Notes: a model not told the origin generated them from the letters alone. DNA of 64,000 nucleotides from Trypanosoma brucei (GCA_000002445.1 CP000066.1:192001-256000); one strand, 5' to 3'; counted from the first letter of the stretch, positions 6,108-63,827 are shown. Made by a program: numbers and translations.

Positions 6108-8372
6108 TCACGCACGTTCCCCTACGCTTTTTGTTGTATCCACACCATCCACTACGGTGTCTGGGAGCTCGCTACCTACCACTTCAGGCAGTCTTGTTAG
6201 ATTAATCGATCGATTTAGCACGCGCCTCGGCTCCACACAATGCTTGCTGCGACCGGTGGAAGATATTTCAGGTAGTACGAGGGAGCCGGAGCGATTCATC
6301 AGCCGACGGCCACTACTTGCGCTACCTTCATAAATTACTCCGCCTTTTGCTGAAGGAGTAGCGTCTTCCCCAACTAACCCTGATTCGCTATCCAACTCAA
6401 ATATTTCAATCATTGCTTCATCCGGCACAAACGAGTACTTCAACTGACGCGACATACGAAGTCCATCAGGGCGGTGTCGTCTTCTCTTTTTCTCTGAAGA
6501 GGCAACCGCAGAATGATTGAGTGAAGTACTATAATACTTGTCCCCAATTTCCATCGAACCACCGAGAACGCCAACATACACAGAATCTTTTGATGCATCT
6601 CCATGTCCTTTGCACGGTGTTGTTCTAGTCGGATATACCTTGTAGACGATGTCCCTCTTTTCAATCTCCCCAGCGAACTCGCCAGGAACTTCCAGCAACG
6701 AAAAACTTGAGCGAGACACTCCTTTCTTTGAGCGACGGCTTTGTCCTTGTCTGTCTTTTCGTGGGGTTTTGGTGGCGTTTCTTGTGCCTAATGAAGGTAT
6801 GATCTTTATGTCTTCTGCCGTTTCGGGAATTTCACAACCTTCATTAACTTCAAGATCTGAGAATGTAATCGAACGCTCGTTGACTTTGTGTGCGCGACGC
6901 CTTTTGGAAGGATAGAGAGTCTTCTTGTCACACGATTCATGTCGAATCACGGACAGGCTGAGCGAATCCAACTCACTTGCCACAACATCATCAAGAAGTG
7001 ATATATTACGGTTCGGTGGATGCTTCCGCCGTTTTTTCCTCGAACACTTCTCAGCAGGTTGGTTGGGGTGTTCATTCAATGCGACGCCACCGCTTCGGTG
7101 GCGCCGCATTTCGGACGTCTCTTCCTCCACAATCTCACCTGCAAAGTCATCAAAAATAACATCCACAAGTTGTGAAACATGGTTTTTATTCACACGCTTC
7201 CTACGGATGTGTCTTGGAGACTCTGCCAGCGTTGTTACCATTACCGATGCATAGCTCCTATTTTCTGATGGCAAAACCTTTGTGCGGCTTTCCACCATCC
7301 TGATCTGCGGCATAGTCAACACCGACTCTTTAACGTCGCCGGGACAGCCTTCCCTACAAAACAAGTCACCAGCTGGCTTACTGACAACAGTACAGGTGCC
7401 CCCGATCCACTCATTTACAGCAATTGGTATAGTGATTCCTCTCATTACGCAATGCTTCCTCACGACAGTCCCTGCGTCCCCATCGTGTTTCGACACCGCG
7501 TTTGATATTGTTATCTCTGGAATCTTATTGACAGCCTCTTTGATTTGTTTATCGATACACTCCAGAGCCTCCATCTCGTCATTCCCAGCTGTTTTCAGCT
7601 TCATTTCCCTCGCTTCAATATAAGCTGCCACCTGTTTTAGATGATATAACTGCTCCTTAAAGCTAGGGTTATCCCAATCAACATCTTCAAACTCCTCCGG
7701 AGTAACCTCCACATCGGGATCCCGCAAACGCTTTATCAATTTTTTTATGCATGTGGTTTGAAGTGGATCTTCCGGCGGCGTGGTACCGGGGATTCGCTCC
7801 CCTGACTCAACAGCTTCATATACCTTCTCTTGAAAACAGCCTTGGGCGGGGTGAGCACGACCACGGCATATGCTAATATTAAAGTAATCGTCAGATACGC
7901 TTGTCCCTTCGTAGCTGTCACCATCTTCGTCAGTATGATAAACTACTGCTTCCGGTTGAGCTGATACAGCGCGACCGGTTCTCACCACAAGTGAAAAATG
8001 AAGTGGCTGAAAGTCTGCGCTATTATCTGATGAGTAGTATGAGCTGGTTTCCTCCTCTTCTTCCTCACCGATCGTAGCTGAGTAGATTCTCTCTGGAATA
8101 TAGCCGATGCCCCTATTATCCCTCCCCCGAAATTGACTAGCACGAAGCGGGGAGACATCGCTTTCTCCAAAAGAACCCGAGTCAGTACTGTCAACAGATG
8201 AAGTCTCGAAGTCAGCCCCGCCCCGTCGAGATATACTGGACAACGAGTAGCGCGAAAACTTTGCTTCACAATGATCTTTTACAGAACGCTGTTTACAAAT
8301 TCCGCTACATGGTAACCCGTCCCACTCGGACTTCAGGATTCCAGATAAGCTAGCTTCGCTCGCCAACGTCAT
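6108..8372 (-). CDS. Hypothetical 754-aa Ser-rich protein with several basic NLS-like clusters.
   Basis: Long ORF with an ATG start. Basic clusters KKRRRH, RKKRRKH and KRRRAHK suggest nuclear localisation. An acidic stretch EEEEEETSSYYSSD is also present. No conserved domain recognised. Confidence 0.55.
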   Translation of the reverse strand: MTLASEASLSGILKSEWDGLPCSGICKQRSVKDHCEAKFSRYSLSSISRRGGADFETSSVDSTDSGSFGESDVSPLRASQFRGRDNRGIGYIPERIYSATIGEEEEEETSSYYSSDNSADFQPLHFSLVVRTGRAVSAQPEAVVYHTDEDGDSYEGTSVSDDYFNISICRGRAHPAQGCFQEKVYEAVESGERIPGTTPPEDPLQTTCIKKLIKRLRDPDVEVTPEEFEDVDWDNPSFKEQLYHLKQVAAYIEAREMKLKTAGNDEMEALECIDKQIKEAVNKIPEITISNAVSKHDGDAGTVVRKHCVMRGITIPIAVNEWIGGTCTVVSKPAGDLFCREGCPGDVKESVLTMPQIRMVESRTKVLPSENRSYASVMVTTLAESPRHIRRKRVNKNHVSQLVDVIFDDFAGEIVEEETSEMRRHRSGGVALNEHPNQPAEKCSRKKRRKHPPNRNISLLDDVVASELDSLSLSVIRHESCDKKTLYPSKRRRAHKVNERSITFSDLEVNEGCEIPETAEDIKIIPSLGTRNATKTPRKDRQGQSRRSKKGVSRSSFSLLEVPGEFAGEIEKRDIVYKVYPTRTTPCKGHGDASKDSVYVGVLGGSMEIGDKYYSTSLNHSAVASSEKKRRRHRPDGLRMSRQLKYSFVPDEAMIEIFELDSESGLVGEDATPSAKGGVIYEGSASSGRRLMNRSGSLVLPEISSTGRSKHCVEPRRVLNRSINLTRLPEVVGSELPDTVVDGVDTTKSVGERA

Positions 8373-8696
8373 GACGAAAAAGTCCCAATGTGCAAAAAAA
8401 AAGGTTATATATGTACAGATATATACTTTTCCCTACTGTGAACCTGACTCGCTAAACCTTGGTGCAAGAAAAGAAGGAACACGACTGTGTGAGCCACTTC
8501 GGTCAACGGGTAAGAGAATTGAGTATTTTTTTTCCATCATTTTCTTCGAGGAGCAAAGTTACGGTAGGGTGCCAACGCCAAAACAACCATCCTTCACAAA
8601 ATGCTAACGGTAAACGCCTGCTAACTACAGTTGGCTGATGCTGCAAAAATGTCTTCTCGCCCTTCATGAAATGTTGGAGTTTCACTGACGCGCGAA

Positions 8697-8708
8697 CCCC
8701 CCCCCCCC
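8697..8708. repeat. C12 homopolymer, which is G12 on the minus (sense) strand of the left unit.
   Basis: Read directly from the sequence. It lies between the 754-aa gene and ACP. Confidence 0.9.
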
Positions 8709-9448
8709 TCCTCCTCAGGCATGTAGAACTTGGCAACTACCATCAGCCAGTGGTGACCTCCCAAACAATATAACCAATATCGTGCGCAGCACTACAATCA
8801 CAAAGAAAACTTCTCCAAACATCCGGAATGCATAAAGCATGGTAAGATCTGCAGCTCTGATAGCTAACTCTCAACCAGGTTTCCCCCAGGAGCTGCCCGT
8901 AACAGTTGTTTTGCTCAGCGAAGAAAAAGGTGCTCAAACAATTCACACGCAAAAAACATAATAACACTCATCGATGTGATCAATCACCATAGCATATGTC
9001 TGTGGAGTTCTTATGGGGAACAAACACACCTTCACACATTTGATTTTTTCGCTAAGGAAGGAGCACTAAGAGAATAGCGATACGACGGTAAATATTTCTA
9101 GGGAATGAGCCCACAAGAAAGTATTGGTGGAACTCCTCCAAGAACATCGTACAGTTTCTCAAGAAATAGATAACCCGAACACCAGGGGGGAAAACGTTCA
9201 CAAAAAAAAAGACCTCTTCACCCAACGTACGACGTTTGCATGATCCTACCCCCTTCATTTCCTTAAGTTAGTGATGTGCACGGTAATATTTACTGCCGAA
9301 GTGATAATCATTCATCCACCATAAATTACTTTCTGCAATCACTCACAACCAACGTTTACACCCTTCATTACAACCTTTTCCTCCATGTTGTTATGGGCGC
9401 GCGTTTAGCGCCTATTACGACATCCCTAACTAGTATCATGAACAGCTC

Positions 9449-9895
9449 TTACTTGGCCATTGGGTTCTGAGAAATGTACTCCACTGCATCGGTAATAGAC
9501 TGAATTTTCTCGGCATCATGATCTGGGATGTCTAAAATAAACTCTTGCTCGATAGCAAAAACAACTTCAACAACGTCCAGTGAGTTCAATCCAAGATCAT
9601 TGACGAAGTGTGACTGCGGTGTTACCTTTGAGGCATCGACTTTCTCAAAGTTTTTGACGACTTCAAGTACACGTGTCAGAACGTCATCTTTGTTTAGGAG
9701 GTACTGCCCAGTTCGACCGGCTTCCTCCCCCGCTGCGTGACCTTCAGAGTGAAACCGAACAGGAAGGTACATCGGAATAGTAACAGCTTGAGTAGCCATA
9801 ACCTTCCATGTCGACACTGCGTGGCACCGGCCACGGAGTAGAGAATAAGCGCCAACCTGTGTGGCAAACTTCCTTGCAAGTTGAGACCGCTGCAT
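9449..9895 (-). CDS. ACP: Mitochondrial acyl carrier protein: a phosphopantetheine-binding ACP domain preceded by a long N-terminal presequence.
   Basis: The C-terminal 80 aa carry the ACP signature DLGLNSLDVVEVVFAIEQEF around the Ser attachment site, followed by IPDHDAEKIQSITDAVEYI. Track ORF 9449..9961 starts with GTG. The first ATG is residue 23 (MQRSQLARKF...), at about 9895. The basic and hydroxylated N-terminus fits a mitochondrial targeting sequence. Confidence 0.85.
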   Translation of the reverse strand: MQRSQLARKFATQVGAYSLLRGRCHAVSTWKVMATQAVTIPMYLPVRFHSEGHAAGEEAGRTGQYLLNKDDVLTRVLEVVKNFEKVDASKVTPQSHFVNDLGLNSLDVVEVVFAIEQEFILDIPDHDAEKIQSITDAVEYISQNPMAK

Positions 9896-12195
9896 CGTCG
9901 AGCACCTTCTTACAAAAACGATTTTGTAAACAATAAAAAAGCAGGAAAAGTGTAACAACACAGAAGCAATCGCTATAGCAGAGAAAGTTCACTCATCACA
10001 CAACCACGCTGAATGAGGGGATCAATTACAACTTACAAACAAAAGATGGAATCCGAAACGACAGTCGTCAAAATGTCTTGCAACAAACCGTACAGTACGG
10101 TTATCATAGGACTTTCGTTAATGTAGTGGTGTGCAGACATGTTCGAAAACAAAGAAGTAACCGAGTGACAGGTGGACGATAAAACAAAAAGTACTTAACA
10201 TTCATATGTTTAATTTTTCAACGTACTAGACACCCGATCCTCCTTTTCCCTGACACGGAAATACGCCCCACCTCCAACTCCTACGCATAGCCGAGCAACA
10301 CAACTCATTACAATACGAGAACCGAAGATCAGACGTTAACACAACGTATAGGTAAACGCTGCATAAAAATTTAACCTCACAATTGCCTTCCACCATTGGG
10401 AAGATAGGGAAGATGAGAGGGTAAACTTGAGAAAAGAGAGAAAGTTTTCAGAACCATACAGCGAGGAGCACATTTAGAACAAGCTGCAGAAACAGAATTA
10501 TTATCATCAGCACGCGGAACAGTGGCTAGAATTCCCCTTTGTTCATTTCCAAATAAACTGTAATGACAAAAATGAACCACGTATATCACGTTTCCATTAG
10601 AAGTATCACGGTGTTGAATAGTCGACCGCAACACCAAAATAATAACGATATTGATAAGAAGTGTTATAAAATCGAGCAAAGGATAAAAGAACACCCCAAG
10701 TGATTCACTCAGGGACAATTCGCCAAAGCAGCCGCGCTGCAAACCAAAGCCCTTCGCCGGCACCTGATATTCATCCTATCATGTACCACACCTACCCCCA
10801 AAAAGGTAAAGAAGCAAACTCTAGTAAAGAAGCAGGCAGCTATCCACCAAAACAGATTAAAGCCAACCGCGGCAATCAATTCAACGAAGTGACGGCAAAA
10901 ATACCACCCTCAGGTTCCATAATGCGCTCACCCCAAAACCTGATAACACCTCAAATGTAATTTAACAATTGCCACAGCACAACAACAATGCTCTTTCAAC
11001 ATACGTTCCGAAGACTCCTCCCTTCGGTTTCAACTGACAGGCACTGAAGGACATTCACAACTCTGCTTGTGTTGTGCATATTATCGGCGAAAACATAATT
11101 GTTTACATCAACGCTAACAAGAAGAGAATATGAGAACAAAAGTCAGCCAATACAACACGGTTAATAAGAAGAACATAACATGTTATAGCTTCATTACGGC
11201 ATATCCCCTTACTAATCACTACAATAGCAGAGAGCTCGGTAGCTGTGACAGAGTGGAAACGAAAATGAAAAAGAAAATCAATTTGAAAACAAACAAAATT
11301 CCAAAGTGTGCCCCGACGAGGAATCGTATGAAACGCATCCGCCCCATGCTGAGGGGGATATCTCTCTTTGCACGAAAAAAGGTTAATACTGATCCGGTTT
11401 CGGAGAAGGACAACAAGGCATTTGTGTGGCACGTGACAGCAATATGGAAAAAAGAGAACGGATAACATCAAATACAAACGGTGTTCTGTTGTGAGCATTG
11501 ACAGCCCTCTTCAAAAGTTTTTGTTGCAGTGGACGGGCGACCGGTCCGCACATGAAGTGGCAAAACGTTGGAACACGATTACCTGGTCGTGATGCAGTGT
11601 TGTACTTCGTGACGGAACCGCAGCGGCTGGTTGCGCGACGGAAAATCTTCAATCTTGGAGGGAATGCGCCAAATCATTTTGCGTAAGGAACTCCATCCAA
11701 GGATCGCGGACATACAAGAAACCCCACACACCCCAGCTGTCACATGCCCCGCAAAATATTTGGGGAGGTGGAGCACTGTCGGGTCGCAAACTTTCGCATC
11801 GACCGGAGCGACCGCCGCCCGTTCGTTTACTCTTCAAGGAAACCGGAGCAGCATTTGCAGGGAAACGGGGTGATATTCAAACCCCTTTTACCCAGAGCGT
11901 AATAACAAGTTGGGCGGCTCGGGTAAAGCACGGAGGCACACCGATAGAAAAGACACCCTGCGACAAACAGTAGTGCATCAAAGCACAAGAGAATTAAAAT
12001 GTAAAACGGGATCCGAATAGCTCAAGCGAATGGGTTGCCGGCATGGCATGGCCGCCAACAGCTGGGGATACTCGAAATTGGAGACCACGCACCGACGGCT
12101 GCGGTCTCGAAACTTTACCGTCCTGGTGCTTTACGGGCCGTAGCCTCCTTTGGATGATTTCGGAACCACAAAGGAAACAAATTGCCCCAGTGGTC

Positions 12196-12208
12196 AAAAA
12201 AAAAAAAA
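12196..12208. repeat. A13 homopolymer inside the strand-switch region.
   Basis: Read directly from the sequence. Confidence 0.9.
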
Positions 12209-12654
12209 GTAGTACTTGACAAGCTGTGGAGCGCACTAGGGGAGCGACGGAGCTTCGCCTTCCCCCCGTATCAAAATGTTTGAAGGGAGGAAGCGGACAG
12301 GAGGGGTACAGGAATCGTAAGAGCCGTATGCCCCAACAGGTAGTAAGTGTTTTTGCAACAGTGTATTACGGAATGGGTTTTAATATAATTGCGGCTGGGG
12401 CGGTTGAATGTATACTCATTTTGCTGAGAGGAAAGCTTCACAGTGAGGTAGGTGTAGGGAGAAGGGCGTGCCAAAGGCAGCTGGTTATTGTAGAGCGCTT
12501 CTGGTAGCGGAGCTGGTTCCAGAGCCTATCTATTGCCAACGCCGCCTCAGGAAACCTGAGGAGTAAATAGCGTCTCCAAAAATGCAAAAAGGGGGAAATG
12601 TTTGCAAAACAGGAATGTGAGATGGCACACCAAGTGCCATGTACGGGGTCCTTC

Positions 12655-12680
12655 TTTTTTTTTTTTTGGGGGGGGGGGGG
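12655..12680. repeat. T13 followed by G13 (C13A13 on the minus strand), at the centre of the strand-switch region.
   Basis: Read directly from the sequence: cttc(t)13(g)13cagcgc. Confidence 0.9.
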
Positions 12681-13731
12681 CAGCGCTACTTTTCTGAACT
12701 GAAAGATCTACGGACACCGTGTGTGGCAATGTTAGGGTGCGGCGGCTCCCCGGTAAGGTTGACGCTCCCCAAAATGAGAGGCGTGGTTGCTGCTCCAGCT
12801 CCTAACATGGGGAAGAAGGAATTTGACATGTAAATTTCTGACCTACCGCAGTTTGTTGTATGCTTCAGGTGTGGGGAGTTAAGTAAGCACTGGTGCAAAC
12901 TTGTGCCTTACCGGTGTTGCTGCTGCATCGACGCTAGTAGTGGTAGTGGACTGTGGAGCATTCGAGCAACCGGGTGGGGGGTAGCGGTGGTAGGAGTTTT
13001 GTTTCTTCTGTGGTTCGGACCCGACGGTGTGTCGTTGCCTCGTTCAAATGTGTGGCGGGTTGTGGTTCATAATAGGAATATGCGGGCTGAGTGGGCGGCG
13101 GAACTGGATGCAGCGGTGGCCGCCGCATTGGCCGTGGTGCGTGCAGTTGTGGTAGTTCAGTGGGCTGTGTATCAGATTTGGTGTTTTAGTGGACAGGGTA
13201 TGTTGCGCCAGTGGTACCGGACGGTGGAGGCGTTTTTTTTTTGTCACTCTGCAATTGTTTTGCAGTACAGCTGGAAATGGCACTCTCGCATCTGCGCTTT
13301 TGTATTTTATTTCTGGACTTTTTTTGATGCATCAACTCTGCGCGAAGGGAGGTTTGTGGAATTGCGTTTTTTTGTGTGTGTATTCTTTCTTGCTTGTGCC
13401 ACTGTTTGCTTTATTGGGCTGATATAGAAAATACGAATATACGTAGTGTTGGTCGGTGCCGCATTGACCAACGTTCCTTTGATGATATTATCACTCTGCC
13501 GCTGCCTCCTGAAAGCGTGCTACCATGCAACTGTGCGATTGCTTTTATATTCAAGGGCGGAAAAGGCTTTAATGATAAAACAAATCAGTGATGCTGAGCA
13601 GCGTTGTTTTTAGAAGCGAGATGAAACATGGTGTATATGTGTAAGTGACTATGAGAAGGGAGAAGTTGGTGCGTACCAAATTTTATTATATTACTCTCAC
13701 TTCGACCCGATATATTTTGTCTATTTGTTTA

Positions 13732-13748
13732 ATATATATATATATATA
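13732..13748. repeat. (AT)n microsatellite.
   Basis: Read directly from the sequence. Confidence 0.9.
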
Positions 13749-14218
13749 ATGCTCTCACAGTTCGATACATTTGTCGCACCTCCTAAATGGTTTCTAAGAG
13801 GCGGTGCTTCCGAGGGGTCAAGGCTGATGTCGATTACCTAGCAGCTGGTGTTATTGATGGTGATTTCTTTGTATGTGTCGAGCACTTACTTAAAGCTGCG
13901 CCTCAGTTATCAACTTCAGTAAATAAATGTTATAAAGCAGTGATCATTTTAAAGGTGCTCCTGTCTTTGGTGGACGAAATTTGTGTGGGTTTTATTTTGG
14001 GAGTTGCAAGTTGGGTATATGTGGTTATTTCGTGTCATATTTTTTTTTTAAAACTTAAGGAATAGTTAGTTTTTTTGTTTCCCTTTCGTCTCGTGGTTTC
14101 GATACGTCGCAGTACATATCTCTACTCCTTTTATCATCTTTTGTTTCTCCTAAGAATTAAGAAAGAACCTTTTTTCACTGCGTGTGTGTTCACATTTCCC
14201 CTCTAAGAAGCACAAGAC

Positions 14219-15517
14219 ATGCAAACTCCGCTACGTCCAACAATTTTCCCGGAGGGCATAGAAGGGTCTCAGACCGCGGATTCCAGTATAAAGGTAGCAT
14301 GCGGCCGCGATTCAAGCGGTAGAGCAAGCGGATCACCCCCTGATCGTGAGCGCCGGCTTCATCAACGGGAGAAGCAATTGTCTTTTGGGTATGCGACCGA
14401 AGGGTACAACAATATGATTAAGTTGGTGGAGCACGATCCCTTATTAAAAAGTGGTGGAATTATCCCCCTCTCACCCCCTGACGTCAACAAGGGAAGTAAA
14501 AGAGTTTGGGATGTTTCGTTACGGAAGTGGCGTCGGGCGCTGCATATGTTTGATTGCGTATTTATTGAGGGGGAGGATGAAAACAAGAAGACACTTGAGA
14601 GTGTAATAGAAGATCAACGATTGCAGTGGGTGAGTACCGCATATTCCGGCAGGCGGAAAGAAGATCGCGTAAAGGTTTCTGCCAGTACGATCACAAATGC
14701 TCAGAATTCTCCTCACGTTTGCAAGAAGCTGCATGTTGAGGAGTGCCTGAAAGTAATTCTTCGTGAGGAAAGTTGCTATGAACCTGTTGGCAACGTCGTT
14801 CCAGTATCTGCTTCATCATTACTTAAAGGTGCTGATATATCCCCTGCAGATGCAGGCATCAAGATTTTTGTCGCGCCGTCTCCACAGAATCAGTGCAAAC
14901 AAACTCCTGTTCGATCCGGTGCAGTTTGTTCGCGTGTGGCTCCTCGGTGTCTCAATTTTGACTCATCTACGCCTATGCAGAGTAAAGTGCCCCTGAATGG
15001 TGTACAGGAAGTTAAACACCTTCAAAGTTGTGTTCCGCCGCAGCCGAAAGAAAATAAAAACATATGGGTAACGCCAACGATGTGGGTGGACGATGGCGCG
15101 CGCACTTCACCTTTTACATCAATTTACCAACCACCAGTGTTGGAGCAAGTGAGTGAGGTTCAGCAAACTCCTCTAAACTGGAATCTTTTTATTCCTCCTC
15201 AGACATATGTGTGTACGCCCCAACCAGCAACTGCACCGGGAATCGTTTTCGACAAATTTACTCCGAACACTGCTCCGAGGCGGCTTACGATCCTCAGGGA
15301 TAGTAATACAAAGTCACGAGGTGGCGAAGTGGACGTGCTGAAGAGAAATCTTTTCCCTAACAGTGTAATGTCACCATCCCACACTGATTCACTGGAAAAG
15401 GTATTTCACCCCAACACACCGTTAACCCGTTCGTGTGTACGTGGCGAAGTGCCTGAAATAGAAGCAAACAAACCAACGGGTGCTGATTGTGCCCAACAGA
15501 TATTATTCACAGAGTAA
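14219..15517 (+). CDS. SLBP: Histone mRNA stem-loop-binding protein (SLBP)-like RNA-binding protein.
   Basis: The 432-aa ORF with an ATG start carries an N-terminal SLBP RNA-binding domain. RERRLHQREKQLSFGYATEGYNNMIKLV matches RRQKQINYGKNTIAYDRYI. KGSKRVWDVSLRKWRRALHMFD matches [22 protein letters not shown] of metazoan SLBP. It is the first gene of the plus-strand unit. Confidence 0.8.
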   Translation: MQTPLRPTIFPEGIEGSQTADSSIKVACGRDSSGRASGSPPDRERRLHQREKQLSFGYATEGYNNMIKLVEHDPLLKSGGIIPLSPPDVNKGSKRVWDVSLRKWRRALHMFDCVFIEGEDENKKTLESVIEDQRLQWVSTAYSGRRKEDRVKVSASTITNAQNSPHVCKKLHVEECLKVILREESCYEPVGNVVPVSASSLLKGADISPADAGIKIFVAPSPQNQCKQTPVRSGAVCSRVAPRCLNFDSSTPMQSKVPLNGVQEVKHLQSCVPPQPKENKNIWVTPTMWVDDGARTSPFTSIYQPPVLEQVSEVQQTPLNWNLFIPPQTYVCTPQPATAPGIVFDKFTPNTAPRRLTILRDSNTKSRGGEVDVLKRNLFPNSVMSPSHTDSLEKVFHPNTPLTRSCVRGEVPEIEANKPTGADCAQQILFTE

Positions 15518-62952: not shown

Positions 62953-62963
62953 GGGGGGGGGGG
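62953..62963. repeat. G11 homopolymer on the plus (sense) strand.
   Basis: Read directly from the sequence. Confidence 0.9.
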
Positions 62964-63815: not shown

Positions 63816-63827
63816 GGGGGGGGGGGG
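63816..63827. repeat. G12 homopolymer on the plus (sense) strand, preceded by a T-rich tract.
   Basis: Read directly from the sequence. Confidence 0.9.

What the first reader, a model, noticed from the sequence alone, without database searches (positions are those of the whole stretch)
9962..14218. A 4.2-kb divergent strand-switch region that is a candidate bidirectional Pol II start zone with GT-rich promoter-like sequence
All credible genes left of about 9.96 kb are minus-strand and all genes right of 14.2 kb are plus-strand. Between them there is no ORF with coding-like character. The plus strand changes from markedly A/C-rich (about 10.0–11.5 kb, which is GT-rich on the minus sense strand) to markedly G/T-rich (about 12.7–13.5 kb, for example gtgtggcgggttgtggttc...ggtggtagttcagtgggctgtgtatcag). 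The sense strand is therefore GT-rich in both transcription directions. In T. brucei, divergent strand-switch regions are Pol II transcription-start regions, and GT-rich elements have been reported to act as promoters and to direct H2A.Z deposition. This interval is therefore the most likely regulatory hub of the window. No conserved TATA or Inr-like element is visible.
Basis: partly seen in the sequence, partly recalled or inferred. Interest (0 to 1): 0.6.

Follow-up and report, generated by a model that had tools for sequence, protein, structure and literature searches.

The report
Known trypanosome divergent transcription start region

Summary
The window is T. brucei TREU927 chromosome 3, v4 positions 192001-256000 (offset 192000). 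The interval lies between ACP/NDUFAB1 (Tb927.3.860, minus) and SLBP2 (Tb927.3.870, plus). The strand switch, the lack of a credible gene and the composition flip are all real. Sense-strand GT skew is about twice that of other intergenic DNA. The cumulative GT-skew minimum of the whole 64 kb falls at 12276. Kolev et al. 2010 (Table S14) already list Tb927.3.860->3.600 and Tb927.3.870->3.1030 as 'Divergent' Pol II transcription units.

Refinements:
- About 40% of the interval is covered by two published low-abundance trans-spliced, polyadenylated transcripts: Tb3.NT.13 (11113->10053, minus) and Tb3.NT.14 (13428-14090, plus). Initiation must therefore occur in the 2.3-kb core, 11114-13427.
- The plus side carries T13G13 and a 750-bp GT-rich tract that match the published promoter 10-mers. 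The minus side matches only weakly.
- The divergent ACP/SLBP2 arrangement and the A-rich / GC-rich / T-rich layout recur in five other Trypanosoma species in 0.8-1.4 kb, without sequence conservation.
- No tRNA, Rfam family, Pfam domain, repeat or conserved ORF was found.

Verdict: interpretation supported, already known, low interest.

The parts
9449..9895 (-). CDS of mitochondrial acyl carrier protein / NDUFAB1, Tb927.3.860. First annotated gene of the minus PTU (left flank).
   Evidence: 148-aa product identical in T. b. gambiense and T. equiperdum, PF00550. Gene ID. v4 coordinates 201449-201895.
9896..9908 (-). 13-nt 5'UTR of ACP. Major spliced-leader acceptor site at 9908.
   Evidence: Kolev Table S12: SAS at v4 201908, 5'UTR 13 nt. 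AG (ct on + strand) at 9909-9910.
9909..10052 (-). Spacer and pyrimidine tract between the poly(A) site of Tb3.NT.13 and the ACP acceptor site.
   Evidence: Coordinates. Function is inferred from the known coupling of polyadenylation to downstream trans-splicing.
10053..11113 (-). Tb3.NT.13, a published trans-spliced and polyadenylated transcript of 1060 nt at 0.31 RNA/cell.
   Evidence: Kolev Table S7: v4 203113->202053. AG at 11114-11115 on the minus strand. Sense GT skew 0.21. Its 128-aa ORF has no Pfam hit and shows no sign of constraint.
11114..12195 (-). Minus-side upstream zone. It holds the pyrimidine tract for the Tb3.NT.13 acceptor, then a GC ~0.5 stretch that is A-rich on the plus strand. 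Inferred location of the minus-direction start sites.
   Evidence: Must lie upstream of the acceptor at 11113. Sense T-A skew +0.24, sense G-C skew -0.06. Only 3-4 Wedel 10-mer hits.
12196..12208 (-). A13 on the plus strand, which is T13 on the minus sense strand.
   Evidence: inverted pair I2 with the T13 at 12655. One of only four A/T runs of 13 or more in 64 kb.
12209..12654 (.). 446-bp central spacer between the two divergently oriented T-tracts. This is the compositional switch point.
   Evidence: GC 0.50. Cumulative GT-skew minimum of the whole window at 12276, T-A minimum at 12633. No repeats or RNA families.
12655..12680 (+). T13 followed by G13 on the plus (sense) strand.
   Evidence: It yields 9 overlapping Wedel 10-mers including GGGGGGGGGG (132 coding vs 17 non-coding occurrences in TSR region 1). 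It reads T15AG10 in T. b. gambiense.
12681..13427 (+). GT-rich tract with G+T 0.65-0.69, GC ~0.51 and G-C skew +0.3. Inferred plus-direction initiation zone or dispersed promoter. Its last ~80 nt are the pyrimidine tract for the acceptor at 13428.
   Evidence: Top-ranked GT-skew windows of the 64 kb. Lies upstream of the first plus-strand acceptor. The 174-aa ORF here is frameshifted in T. b. gambiense and T. equiperdum.
13428..14090 (+). Tb3.NT.14, a published trans-spliced and polyadenylated transcript of 662 nt at 0.09 RNA/cell.
   Evidence: Kolev Table S7: v4 205428-206090. AG at 13426-13427. Its 92-aa ORF is disrupted in T. b. gambiense.
14091..14218 (+). Spacer and pyrimidine tract, SLBP2 acceptor site at 14155, and the 64-nt 5'UTR.
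   Evidence: Kolev Table S12: SAS at v4 206155, 5'UTR 64 nt. AG at 14153-14154.
14219..15517 (+). CDS of SLBP2 (Tb927.3.870, PF15247). First annotated gene of the plus PTU (right flank).
   Evidence: 100% identical to the TREU927 protein. Gene ID. Pfam.

Best explanation
The interval is the divergent strand-switch region between Tb927.3.860 (ACP) and Tb927.3.870 (SLBP2) on T. brucei chromosome 3. It holds two back-to-back, dispersed RNA polymerase II transcription start regions.

Shown:
- Two polycistronic units run outward from here.
- The first processed RNAs on each side are the weak transcripts Tb3.NT.13 and Tb3.NT.14, followed by ACP and SLBP2.
- Both initiation zones must therefore lie in the 2.3-kb core, 11114-13427.
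- Strand composition flips in that core.

Inferred from published work on other T. brucei start regions:
- Sense-strand G- and T-rich tracts disfavour stable nucleosomes. Here these are T13G13 plus the 750-bp GT-rich tract on the plus side, and T13 plus a T-rich but G-poor stretch on the minus side.
- Such tracts favour H2A.Z/H2B.V deposition, H4K10 acetylation and recruitment of factors such as BDF3 and SPARC.
- Pol II starts at many sites at the 5' edge of each region, with about 4:1 sense bias.
- The leader RNA is trans-spliced at the first usable acceptor. It is then polyadenylated by coupling to the next acceptor, which yields Tb3.NT.13 and Tb3.NT.14 as by-products.

The layout is conserved across Trypanosoma in composition but not in sequence. 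This fits a composition-based promoter rather than a motif-based one.
For: Identity and coordinates: the ACP CDS sits at v4 201449-201895, which is window 9449-9895. All four published acceptor sites land on AG dinucleotides with offset 192000. SLBP2 is 100% identical to the TREU927 protein.

Published start-site status: Kolev Table S14 lists both units as 'Divergent'. 5'-triphosphate reads were enriched at every divergent unit.

Composition.

Wedel 10-mers: 26 plus-strand hits in about 12 clusters at 12.66-14.2 kb, against one minus-strand cluster there. There are 6 minus-sense and 0 plus-strand hits at 9.9-12.25 kb. G-runs of 8 or more on the plus strand occur only here and at the published internal start near 63 kb.

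Mechanism in other loci: GT-rich elements drive directional transcription and H2A.Z deposition and are nucleosome-depleted.

Conservation: divergent ACP/SLBP2 occurs in T. cruzi, T. theileri, T. rangeli, T. melophagium and T. conorhini, with gaps of 0.8-1.4 kb. The three profiled (T. cruzi, T. theileri, T. rangeli) show an A-rich / GC-rich (0.66-0.81) / T-rich layout. ACP is also the first gene of a unit in L. major.

Nothing else present.
Against: - I could not view read-level 5'-triphosphate, H2A.Z, H4K10ac, BDF3, Pol II or SPARC data for this locus. The start-zone status rests on a published table and the authors' general statement.
- The causal role of the GT-rich tract is extrapolated from synthetic and translocated elements tested at other loci. 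Those gave much lower activity than endogenous promoters.
- The minus side has only weak Wedel-type signal. Its only G-run (C12 at 8697-8708) lies outside the interval, downstream of ACP.
- Positive sense GT skew is a general property of T. brucei intergenic DNA (mean 0.084). Part of the signal sits in transcript bodies and pyrimidine tracts.
- Substitution rates between T. brucei subspecies show no constraint.
Confidence: 0.85

Rival explanations
1. The GT skew is a passive by-product and not the promoter. It would reflect transcription-associated mutational asymmetry plus RNA-processing signals (pyrimidine tracts, U-rich UTR-like sequence). Initiation would be specified by chromatin factors or by small sequence-specific promoters of the kind reported by Cordon-Obras et al. 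2022. This overlaps with the best explanation on what the locus is and differs only on cause.
For: - All intergenic DNA in the window has positive sense GT skew.
- Several of the most skewed windows (10.7-11.0 kb, 13.9-14.1 kb) lie inside processed transcripts or pyrimidine tracts.
- There is no sequence constraint between subspecies and no conserved core motif between species.
- SPARC authors found promoters heterogeneous and without a shared motif.
- GT-rich synthetic elements reached only a fraction of endogenous activity.
Against: - The strongest skew (12.9-13.3 kb) and T13G13 lie upstream of the first acceptor, where no processing signal is needed.
- Synthetic GT-rich elements are sufficient for orientation-dependent transcription and H2A.Z deposition elsewhere.
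- G-runs in this window occur only at the two published plus-strand start regions.
Confidence: 0.3
2. The central, non-skewed part of the core (about 11.4-12.65 kb) mainly serves as an ORC1/CDC6 binding site or replication origin, or as a boundary between the two start regions. This would be in addition to flanking promoter function.
For: Tiengwe et al. 2012 report ORC1/CDC6 sites at 70% of divergent SSRs, positioned centrally between the twin H4K10ac peaks. The T. brucei gap is 3-5 times longer than in other Trypanosoma species, leaving about 1.2 kb with no evident role.
Against: No locus-specific ORC1/CDC6 or MFA-seq data could be consulted. The spacer evolves as fast as other non-coding DNA. 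No repeat or motif was found.
Confidence: 0.25
3. An unannotated protein-coding gene or pseudogene lies in the interval, so the strand switch sits elsewhere. T. b. gambiense annotates a 131-aa gene here.
For: ORFs of 174, 131, 128 and 92 aa exist. The T. b. gambiense annotation calls the 131-aa ORF. Two processed transcripts exist.
Against: - ORF174, ORF131 and ORF92 are frameshifted in a sister subspecies.
- There are no Pfam hits and no syntenic tblastn hits.
- The substitution rate is at least that of intergenic DNA.
- Neither transcript appears in Kolev's conserved-ORF or peptide tables.
- Both transcripts run in the same direction as their flanking unit, so the switch point would not move.
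Confidence: 0.03
4. A small RNA gene (tRNA, snRNA or snoRNA, as at the 'next to tRNA/snRNA' start sites) nucleates the start region.
For: Some T. brucei Pol II units start next to Pol III genes (Table S14).
Against: ARAGORN finds no tRNA in the 64 kb. There is no Rfam match at gathering threshold in the window, nor at E<=1 in 9800-14300. Kolev classes both units as 'Divergent', not 'next to tRNA'.
Confidence: 0.02

Closest known systems
T. brucei divergent transcription start regions (dTSRs) at strand-switch regions (Siegel 2009; Kolev 2010; Wedel 2017)
   Same: It is one of them. It has two outward-facing units, is listed as 'Divergent' in Kolev Table S14, has a sense-strand G/T bias that is strongest at the 5' edge, carries a poly-G run on the coding strand of the plus side, and has no TATA or Inr-like element.
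   Different: Nothing categorical. The minus side is T-rich but G-poor with few Wedel 10-mers, and its G12 run lies downstream of the first gene. The gap (4.3 kb) is 3-5 times longer than the orthologous gap in other Trypanosoma species.
Synthetic GT-rich promoters GT_210_nt and GT_416_nt (Wedel et al. 2017)
   Same: The tract 12655-13427 shares their building blocks (G-runs, T-runs, GTGTG-type 10-mers) in the sense orientation.
   Different: The natural tract is less extreme: G+T is 0.65-0.69 against 0.80 in GT_210_nt. It has not been tested in a reporter.
Mammalian CpG-island dispersed promoters with divergent transcription
   Same: Broad initiation without TATA, divergent transcripts, H2A.Z-marked and nucleosome-unstable chromatin, and positive GC skew downstream of the start on the plus side.
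   Different: There is no CpG enrichment (CpG o/e 0.68-1.05, window mean 0.94). The promoters drive polycistronic units of many genes. This is an analogy only.
Sequence-specific 75-bp Pol II promoters of Cordon-Obras et al. 2022
   Same: They sit in the same type of locus (a divergent SSR driving polycistronic units).
   Different: The paper and its motif were not available, so no comparison was made. SPARC authors could not find similar motifs at other promoters.

Membership tests
T. brucei divergent Pol II transcription start region (dSSR/dTSR) | Two polycistronic units on opposite strands pointing away from the gap | tested here: met
   ORF strands. Annotations of T. b. gambiense and T. equiperdum. 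Kolev Table S14.
T. brucei divergent Pol II transcription start region (dSSR/dTSR) | Enrichment of 5'-triphosphate primary transcripts (experimental start sites) | tested here: met
   This rests on the literature only. Both units are listed in Table S14, and the text says enrichment was seen at every divergent unit. The read profile of this locus was not seen.
T. brucei divergent Pol II transcription start region (dSSR/dTSR) | H2A.Z/H2B.V, H4K10ac, BDF3 and SPARC enrichment over about 5-10 kb on each side | not testable with these tools
   No ChIP-seq tracks are available. Siegel 2009 is not held.
T. brucei divergent Pol II transcription start region (dSSR/dTSR) | Coding-strand-biased G/T-rich 10-mers at the 5' end of the region, plus side | tested here: met
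   26 plus-strand hits in about 12 clusters against 1 minus-strand cluster in 12.25-14.2 kb, including G13.
T. brucei divergent Pol II transcription start region (dSSR/dTSR) | Coding-strand-biased G/T-rich 10-mers at the 5' end of the region, minus side | tested here: inconclusive
   6 minus-sense hits against 0 plus-strand hits in 9.9-12.25 kb, but at low density and with no G-run. G12 (C12 on the plus strand) sits at 8697-8708, outside the interval.
T. brucei divergent Pol II transcription start region (dSSR/dTSR) | Strand-composition (G>C, T>A on sense) switch inside the gap | tested here: met
   Cumulative GT minimum at 12276, G-C at 11222, T-A at 12633. The sense skew is higher than in other intergenic DNA.
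Pol II start sites next to Pol III genes (tRNA/snRNA-associated) | A tRNA, snRNA or similar gene at the unit boundary | tested here: not met
   No tRNA. No Rfam match.
Sequence-specific Pol II promoters (Cordon-Obras 2022) | Presence of the reported promoter sequence element | not tested
   The paper is not held, so the motif is unknown to me.
ORC1/CDC6-bound replication origin at an SSR | ORC1/CDC6 ChIP peak and/or MFA-seq peak | not testable with these tools
   Only genome-wide statistics are available: 70% of divergent SSRs are bound.

The most novel reading that the evidence does not exclude
The 2.3-kb core may contain a defined compositional module: two long T-tracts in divergent sense orientation (A13 at 12196 and T13G13 at 12655) bracketing a non-skewed, GC-richer spacer. 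The same order (A-run, GC-rich spike, T-run) appears at the orthologous ACP/SLBP2 gap in T. cruzi, T. theileri and T. rangeli, without sequence similarity. The ACP side has stayed a unit start as far out as Leishmania. If this module, rather than diffuse GT-richness, is what excludes nucleosomes and positions SPARC, ORC and Pol II, it would be a compact and testable 'bidirectional core' for trypanosomatid polycistronic promoters.
Probability: 0.2. Interest if true: 0.45.

Novelty: already known. Interest (0 to 1): 0.15.

Why it matters
Divergent strand-switch regions are where nearly all trypanosome protein-coding transcription begins, and how Pol II is recruited without canonical promoters is still only partly understood. 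This locus adds nothing new in kind, because it is already in the published catalogue of start regions.

Three results here are useful:
- A precise parts map that narrows the initiation zone to 2.3 kb.
- The observation that the two sides of the same SSR differ sharply in GT-promoter signature.
- The finding that the arrangement and compositional layout, but not the sequence, are conserved across Trypanosoma.

These make it a convenient, compactly defined locus for testing whether T/G tracts are causal.

Tried and rejected
- tRNA scan and Rfam at gathering threshold and at E<=1: nothing found.
- All ORFs of 40 aa or more: the three of 174, 131 and 92 aa are frameshifted in sister subspecies. 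No Pfam hits. Six-frame tblastn against five orthologous loci gave chance-level hits only and none syntenic.
- blastn of the SSR against orthologous SSRs of T. cruzi, T. theileri, T. rangeli, T. vivax and L. major: only homopolymer matches.
- MAFFT alignments of close species pairs: conservation only next to the start codons and acceptor sites, with no core motif.
- Direct, inverted and tandem repeats: only the A13/T13 pair and an (AT)8.
- Similarity of the SSR to the rest of the window: none. Canonical G-quadruplex motifs: none on either strand.
- CpG observed/expected: unremarkable.
- The look-up of encoding contigs with the window's SLBP2 or with P0001: not on record.
- The T. congolense locus is not available. 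The T. grayi contig ends 333 bp upstream of ACP. The T. vivax contig ends 2.5 kb upstream of ACP.
- Cordon-Obras 2022 and Siegel 2009 are not held, so their motif and ChIP data could not be used.
- The Wedel supplements contain no per-locus TSR coordinates for chromosome 3.
- The bacterial promoter/terminator scan was not used because it does not apply to a trypanosome.
Full report
**Identity of the window.** The ORF at 9449-9895 (minus) encodes a 148-aa acyl carrier protein. It is identical to the protein on T. b. gambiense DAL972 chromosome 3 and in T. equiperdum. The ORF at 14219-15517 (plus) encodes a 432-aa SLBP_RNA_bind protein that is 100% identical to a T. b. brucei TREU927 protein. 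Papers identify these genes as NDUFAB1/ACP = Tb927.3.860 and SLBP2 = Tb927.3.870. Kolev et al. 2010 give the ACP CDS as Tb927_03_v4 201449-201895, so window coordinate = v4 coordinate minus 192000. This offset is confirmed by four published spliced-leader acceptor sites: 201908, 203113, 205428 and 206155. Each falls immediately after an AG dinucleotide on the correct strand, at window 9908, 11113, 13428 and 14155.

**Check of the observation.** All long ORFs left of the gap are on the minus strand and all right of it on the plus strand. The only opposite-strand ORFs are nested in larger genes. The skew flip is real and strong:
- In 200-nt windows the plus-strand GT skew runs from -0.13 to -0.37 at 9.9-11.3 kb. 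It is near zero at 11.4-12.2 kb and reaches +0.24 to +0.38 at 12.8-13.5 and 13.8-14.2 kb.
- Oriented by sense strand, the gap averages 0.18, against 0.084 for the other intergenic windows and 0.028 for coding windows.
- Eight of the ten most skewed intergenic windows of the 64 kb lie in the gap.
- The global minimum of the cumulative GT-AC curve for the whole window is at 12276. The G-C component turns at 11222 and the T-A component at 12633.
- The quoted sequences are present at 13050-13068 and 13149-13175.
- The left edge of the finding (9962) is the end of a GTG-extended ORF. The real ACP start codon is at 9895.

**No gene in the gap.**
- The 174-aa ORF (12903-13427), the 131-aa ORF (11103-11498, minus, annotated as a gene in T. 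b. gambiense) and the 92-aa ORF (13787-14065) are each broken by frameshifts in T. b. gambiense or T. equiperdum.
- None of six ORFs has a Pfam match.
- Six-frame translations give only chance-level, non-syntenic tblastn matches to the orthologous loci of five other species.
- Between T. b. brucei and T. b. gambiense the gap has 1.83% substitutions. Other intergenic DNA has about 1.1% and coding regions 0.1-1.2%.
- There is no tRNA, no Rfam family even at E<=1, no dispersed or tandem repeat of note, no G-quadruplex motif and no CpG enrichment.

**What is published for this locus.**
- Their Table S7 places two novel trans-spliced, polyadenylated transcripts inside the interval. Tb3.NT.13 runs from window 11113 to 10053 on the minus strand (1060 nt, 0.31 RNA/cell). 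Tb3.NT.14 covers window 13428-14090 on the plus strand (662 nt, 0.09 RNA/cell). ACP mRNA is at about 25 per cell.
- Neither transcript appears in their tables of conserved ORFs or peptide-supported ORFs.
- The poly(A) sites lie 145 and 65 nt upstream of the ACP and SLBP2 acceptor sites. This is the distance expected if polyadenylation is coupled to the next trans-splicing event (established knowledge; inference here). I read them as processed pieces of the primary-transcript leaders.

**Consequences for the anatomy.** Both transcripts must be part of the primary transcripts. The minus-direction start sites must therefore lie to the right of 11113, and the plus-direction start sites to the left of 13428. 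Both initiation zones are thus confined to a 2.3-kb core (11114-13427).
- Within the core, an A13 run (12196-12208, which is T13 on the minus sense strand) and a T13G13 run (12655-12680) face away from each other across a 446-bp spacer. These are two of only four A/T runs of 13 or more in 64 kb.
- Right of T13G13 lies the 750-bp GT-rich tract, with G+T 0.65-0.69, GC 0.51 and G-C skew +0.3.

**Comparison with the published promoter signature.** Wedel et al. 2017 list 10-mers enriched at least six-fold on the coding strand of start regions, headed by G10 with 132 coding against 17 non-coding occurrences in the first fifth. I scanned 157 of them across the window.
- 26 plus-strand hits (about 12 clusters) fall at 12.66-14.2 kb, against one minus-strand cluster there.
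- No plus-strand hit occurs at 9-12 kb.
- The minus sense strand has only six scattered hits at 9.9-12.25 kb. Its only G-run (C12 on the plus strand, 8697-8708) lies downstream of ACP, outside the interval.
- Plus-strand G-runs of 8 or more occur only at 12668 and at 62953/63816. The latter pair marks the gap before Tb927.3.1040, which Kolev lists as an 'Internal' start.
- The plus side therefore fits the GT-rich promoter description well. The minus side fits only in T-richness.
- Wedel et al. showed at other loci that such elements drive orientation-dependent transcription and H2A.Z deposition and are nucleosome-depleted. Activity was far below endogenous levels, and initiation is concentrated at the 5' edge of H2A.Z domains with 4:1 sense bias.

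**Comparative evidence.**
- The divergent ACP/SLBP2 arrangement is conserved in five other species. The gaps between coding sequences are: T. cruzi 806 bp, T. rangeli 925 bp, T. conorhini about 1.1 kb, T. melophagium 1264 bp and T. theileri 1378 bp. T. brucei at 4323 bp is 3-5 times longer.
- The three profiled (T. cruzi, T. theileri, T. rangeli) show the same order in miniature: an A-rich half, a GC-rich spike (maximum 150-nt GC 0.66-0.81) and a T/GT-rich half. Long A-runs left of the spike are seen in T. cruzi and T. theileri (none of 9 or more in T. rangeli), and long T-runs right of it in all three.
- The cumulative GT-skew minimum of the fetched locus falls inside the gap in T. theileri, T. 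rangeli and L. major, and in the upstream DNA of T. vivax. In T. cruzi it does not, although the local profile still flips.
- In L. major, ACP is still the first gene of a unit at a 3.6-kb divergent gap. The partner unit is different (methylmalonyl-CoA mutase, TIP120).
- No sequence similarity beyond homopolymers links the T. brucei gap to any of these.
- Alignments of the closer species conserve only the segments next to the start codons and acceptor sites, not the core.

This fits a promoter defined by composition. It agrees with the report that SPARC-bound promoters lack a shared motif.

**Mechanism and rivals.** The best-supported account is two back-to-back dispersed Pol II promoters. The locus-level facts are shown. 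The chromatin steps are inferred from genome-wide studies.
- The main rival concerns cause, not identity. The skew may be a passive consequence of transcription and processing signals. Supporting this, all intergenic DNA is mildly skewed, some top windows lie in transcript bodies, and there is no constraint. Against it, the strongest skew and T13G13 lie upstream of the first acceptor, and GT-rich DNA is sufficient elsewhere.
- An added role for the central spacer as an ORC1/CDC6 site is plausible, since 70% of divergent SSRs are bound centrally. It is untestable here.
- Hidden coding or small-RNA genes are rejected.

**Limits.**
- I saw no read-level ChIP or start-site data for this locus.
- Siegel 2009 and Cordon-Obras 2022 are not held.
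- The T. congolense locus was unavailable.
- The window statistics use overlapping windows from a single 64-kb sample.

**Verdict.** The feature is already known, and interest is low.

Noticed in passing
window 62953-62963, 63816-63827 (and 60-64 kb generally): G11 and G12 runs on the plus strand, with a cluster of Wedel coding-strand 10-mers, sit just past Tb927.3.1030 and Tb3.NT.16. This is the start of the 8.5-kb gap before Tb927.3.1040, which Kolev Table S14 lists as an 'Internal' Pol II unit start. The window therefore holds a second start region, cut off by its right end.
   Followed up: partly
window 8697-8708: A C12 run (G12 on the minus sense strand) lies between Tb927.3.850 and Tb3.NT.12, about 0.75 kb downstream of the ACP coding sequence in the minus unit. 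It is the only minus-sense G-run near the SSR and may belong to the broad minus start region. The surrounding intergenic segment has the highest T. brucei/T. equiperdum substitution rate of those measured (1.67%).
   Followed up: partly
window 11103-11498 (minus); L001 8398-8793: The T. b. gambiense annotation calls a 131-aa gene here. It straddles the acceptor site of Tb3.NT.13, has no Pfam match and is frameshifted in T. equiperdum, so it is almost certainly spurious.
   Followed up: yes
L008 (L. major chr 27) 6366-10000: ACP is still the first gene of a polycistronic unit at a 3.6-kb divergent gap. The opposite unit starts with methylmalonyl-CoA mutase rather than SLBP2, so the synteny break between Trypanosoma and Leishmania falls exactly at the strand-switch region.
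   Followed up: partly
window 12655-12680 vs T. b. gambiense (L001): T13G13 reads T15AG10 in T. b. gambiense. A 13-bp G-rich deletion (12973-12985) and several T-run length changes also occur in the GT-rich tract. The homopolymer tracts are length-polymorphic between subspecies, but a G-run of 10 or more is kept.
   Followed up: partly
window 8561-9065 (minus): The published novel transcript Tb3.NT.12 (504 nt, 2.2 RNA/cell) lies between Tb927.3.850 and ACP. It shows that the nominally intergenic DNA on the minus side is also processed into small polyadenylated RNAs.
   Followed up: no
A1 columns 1340-1400; A2 columns 975-1010: The roughly 50 nt just upstream of the SLBP2 start codon are strongly conserved between T. 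theileri and T. melophagium, and partly among T. cruzi, T. rangeli and T. conorhini (for example CAACCGTAGAAG...ACTGCTTT). This is probably the 5'UTR and acceptor region of SLBP2 and not promoter sequence.
   Followed up: no
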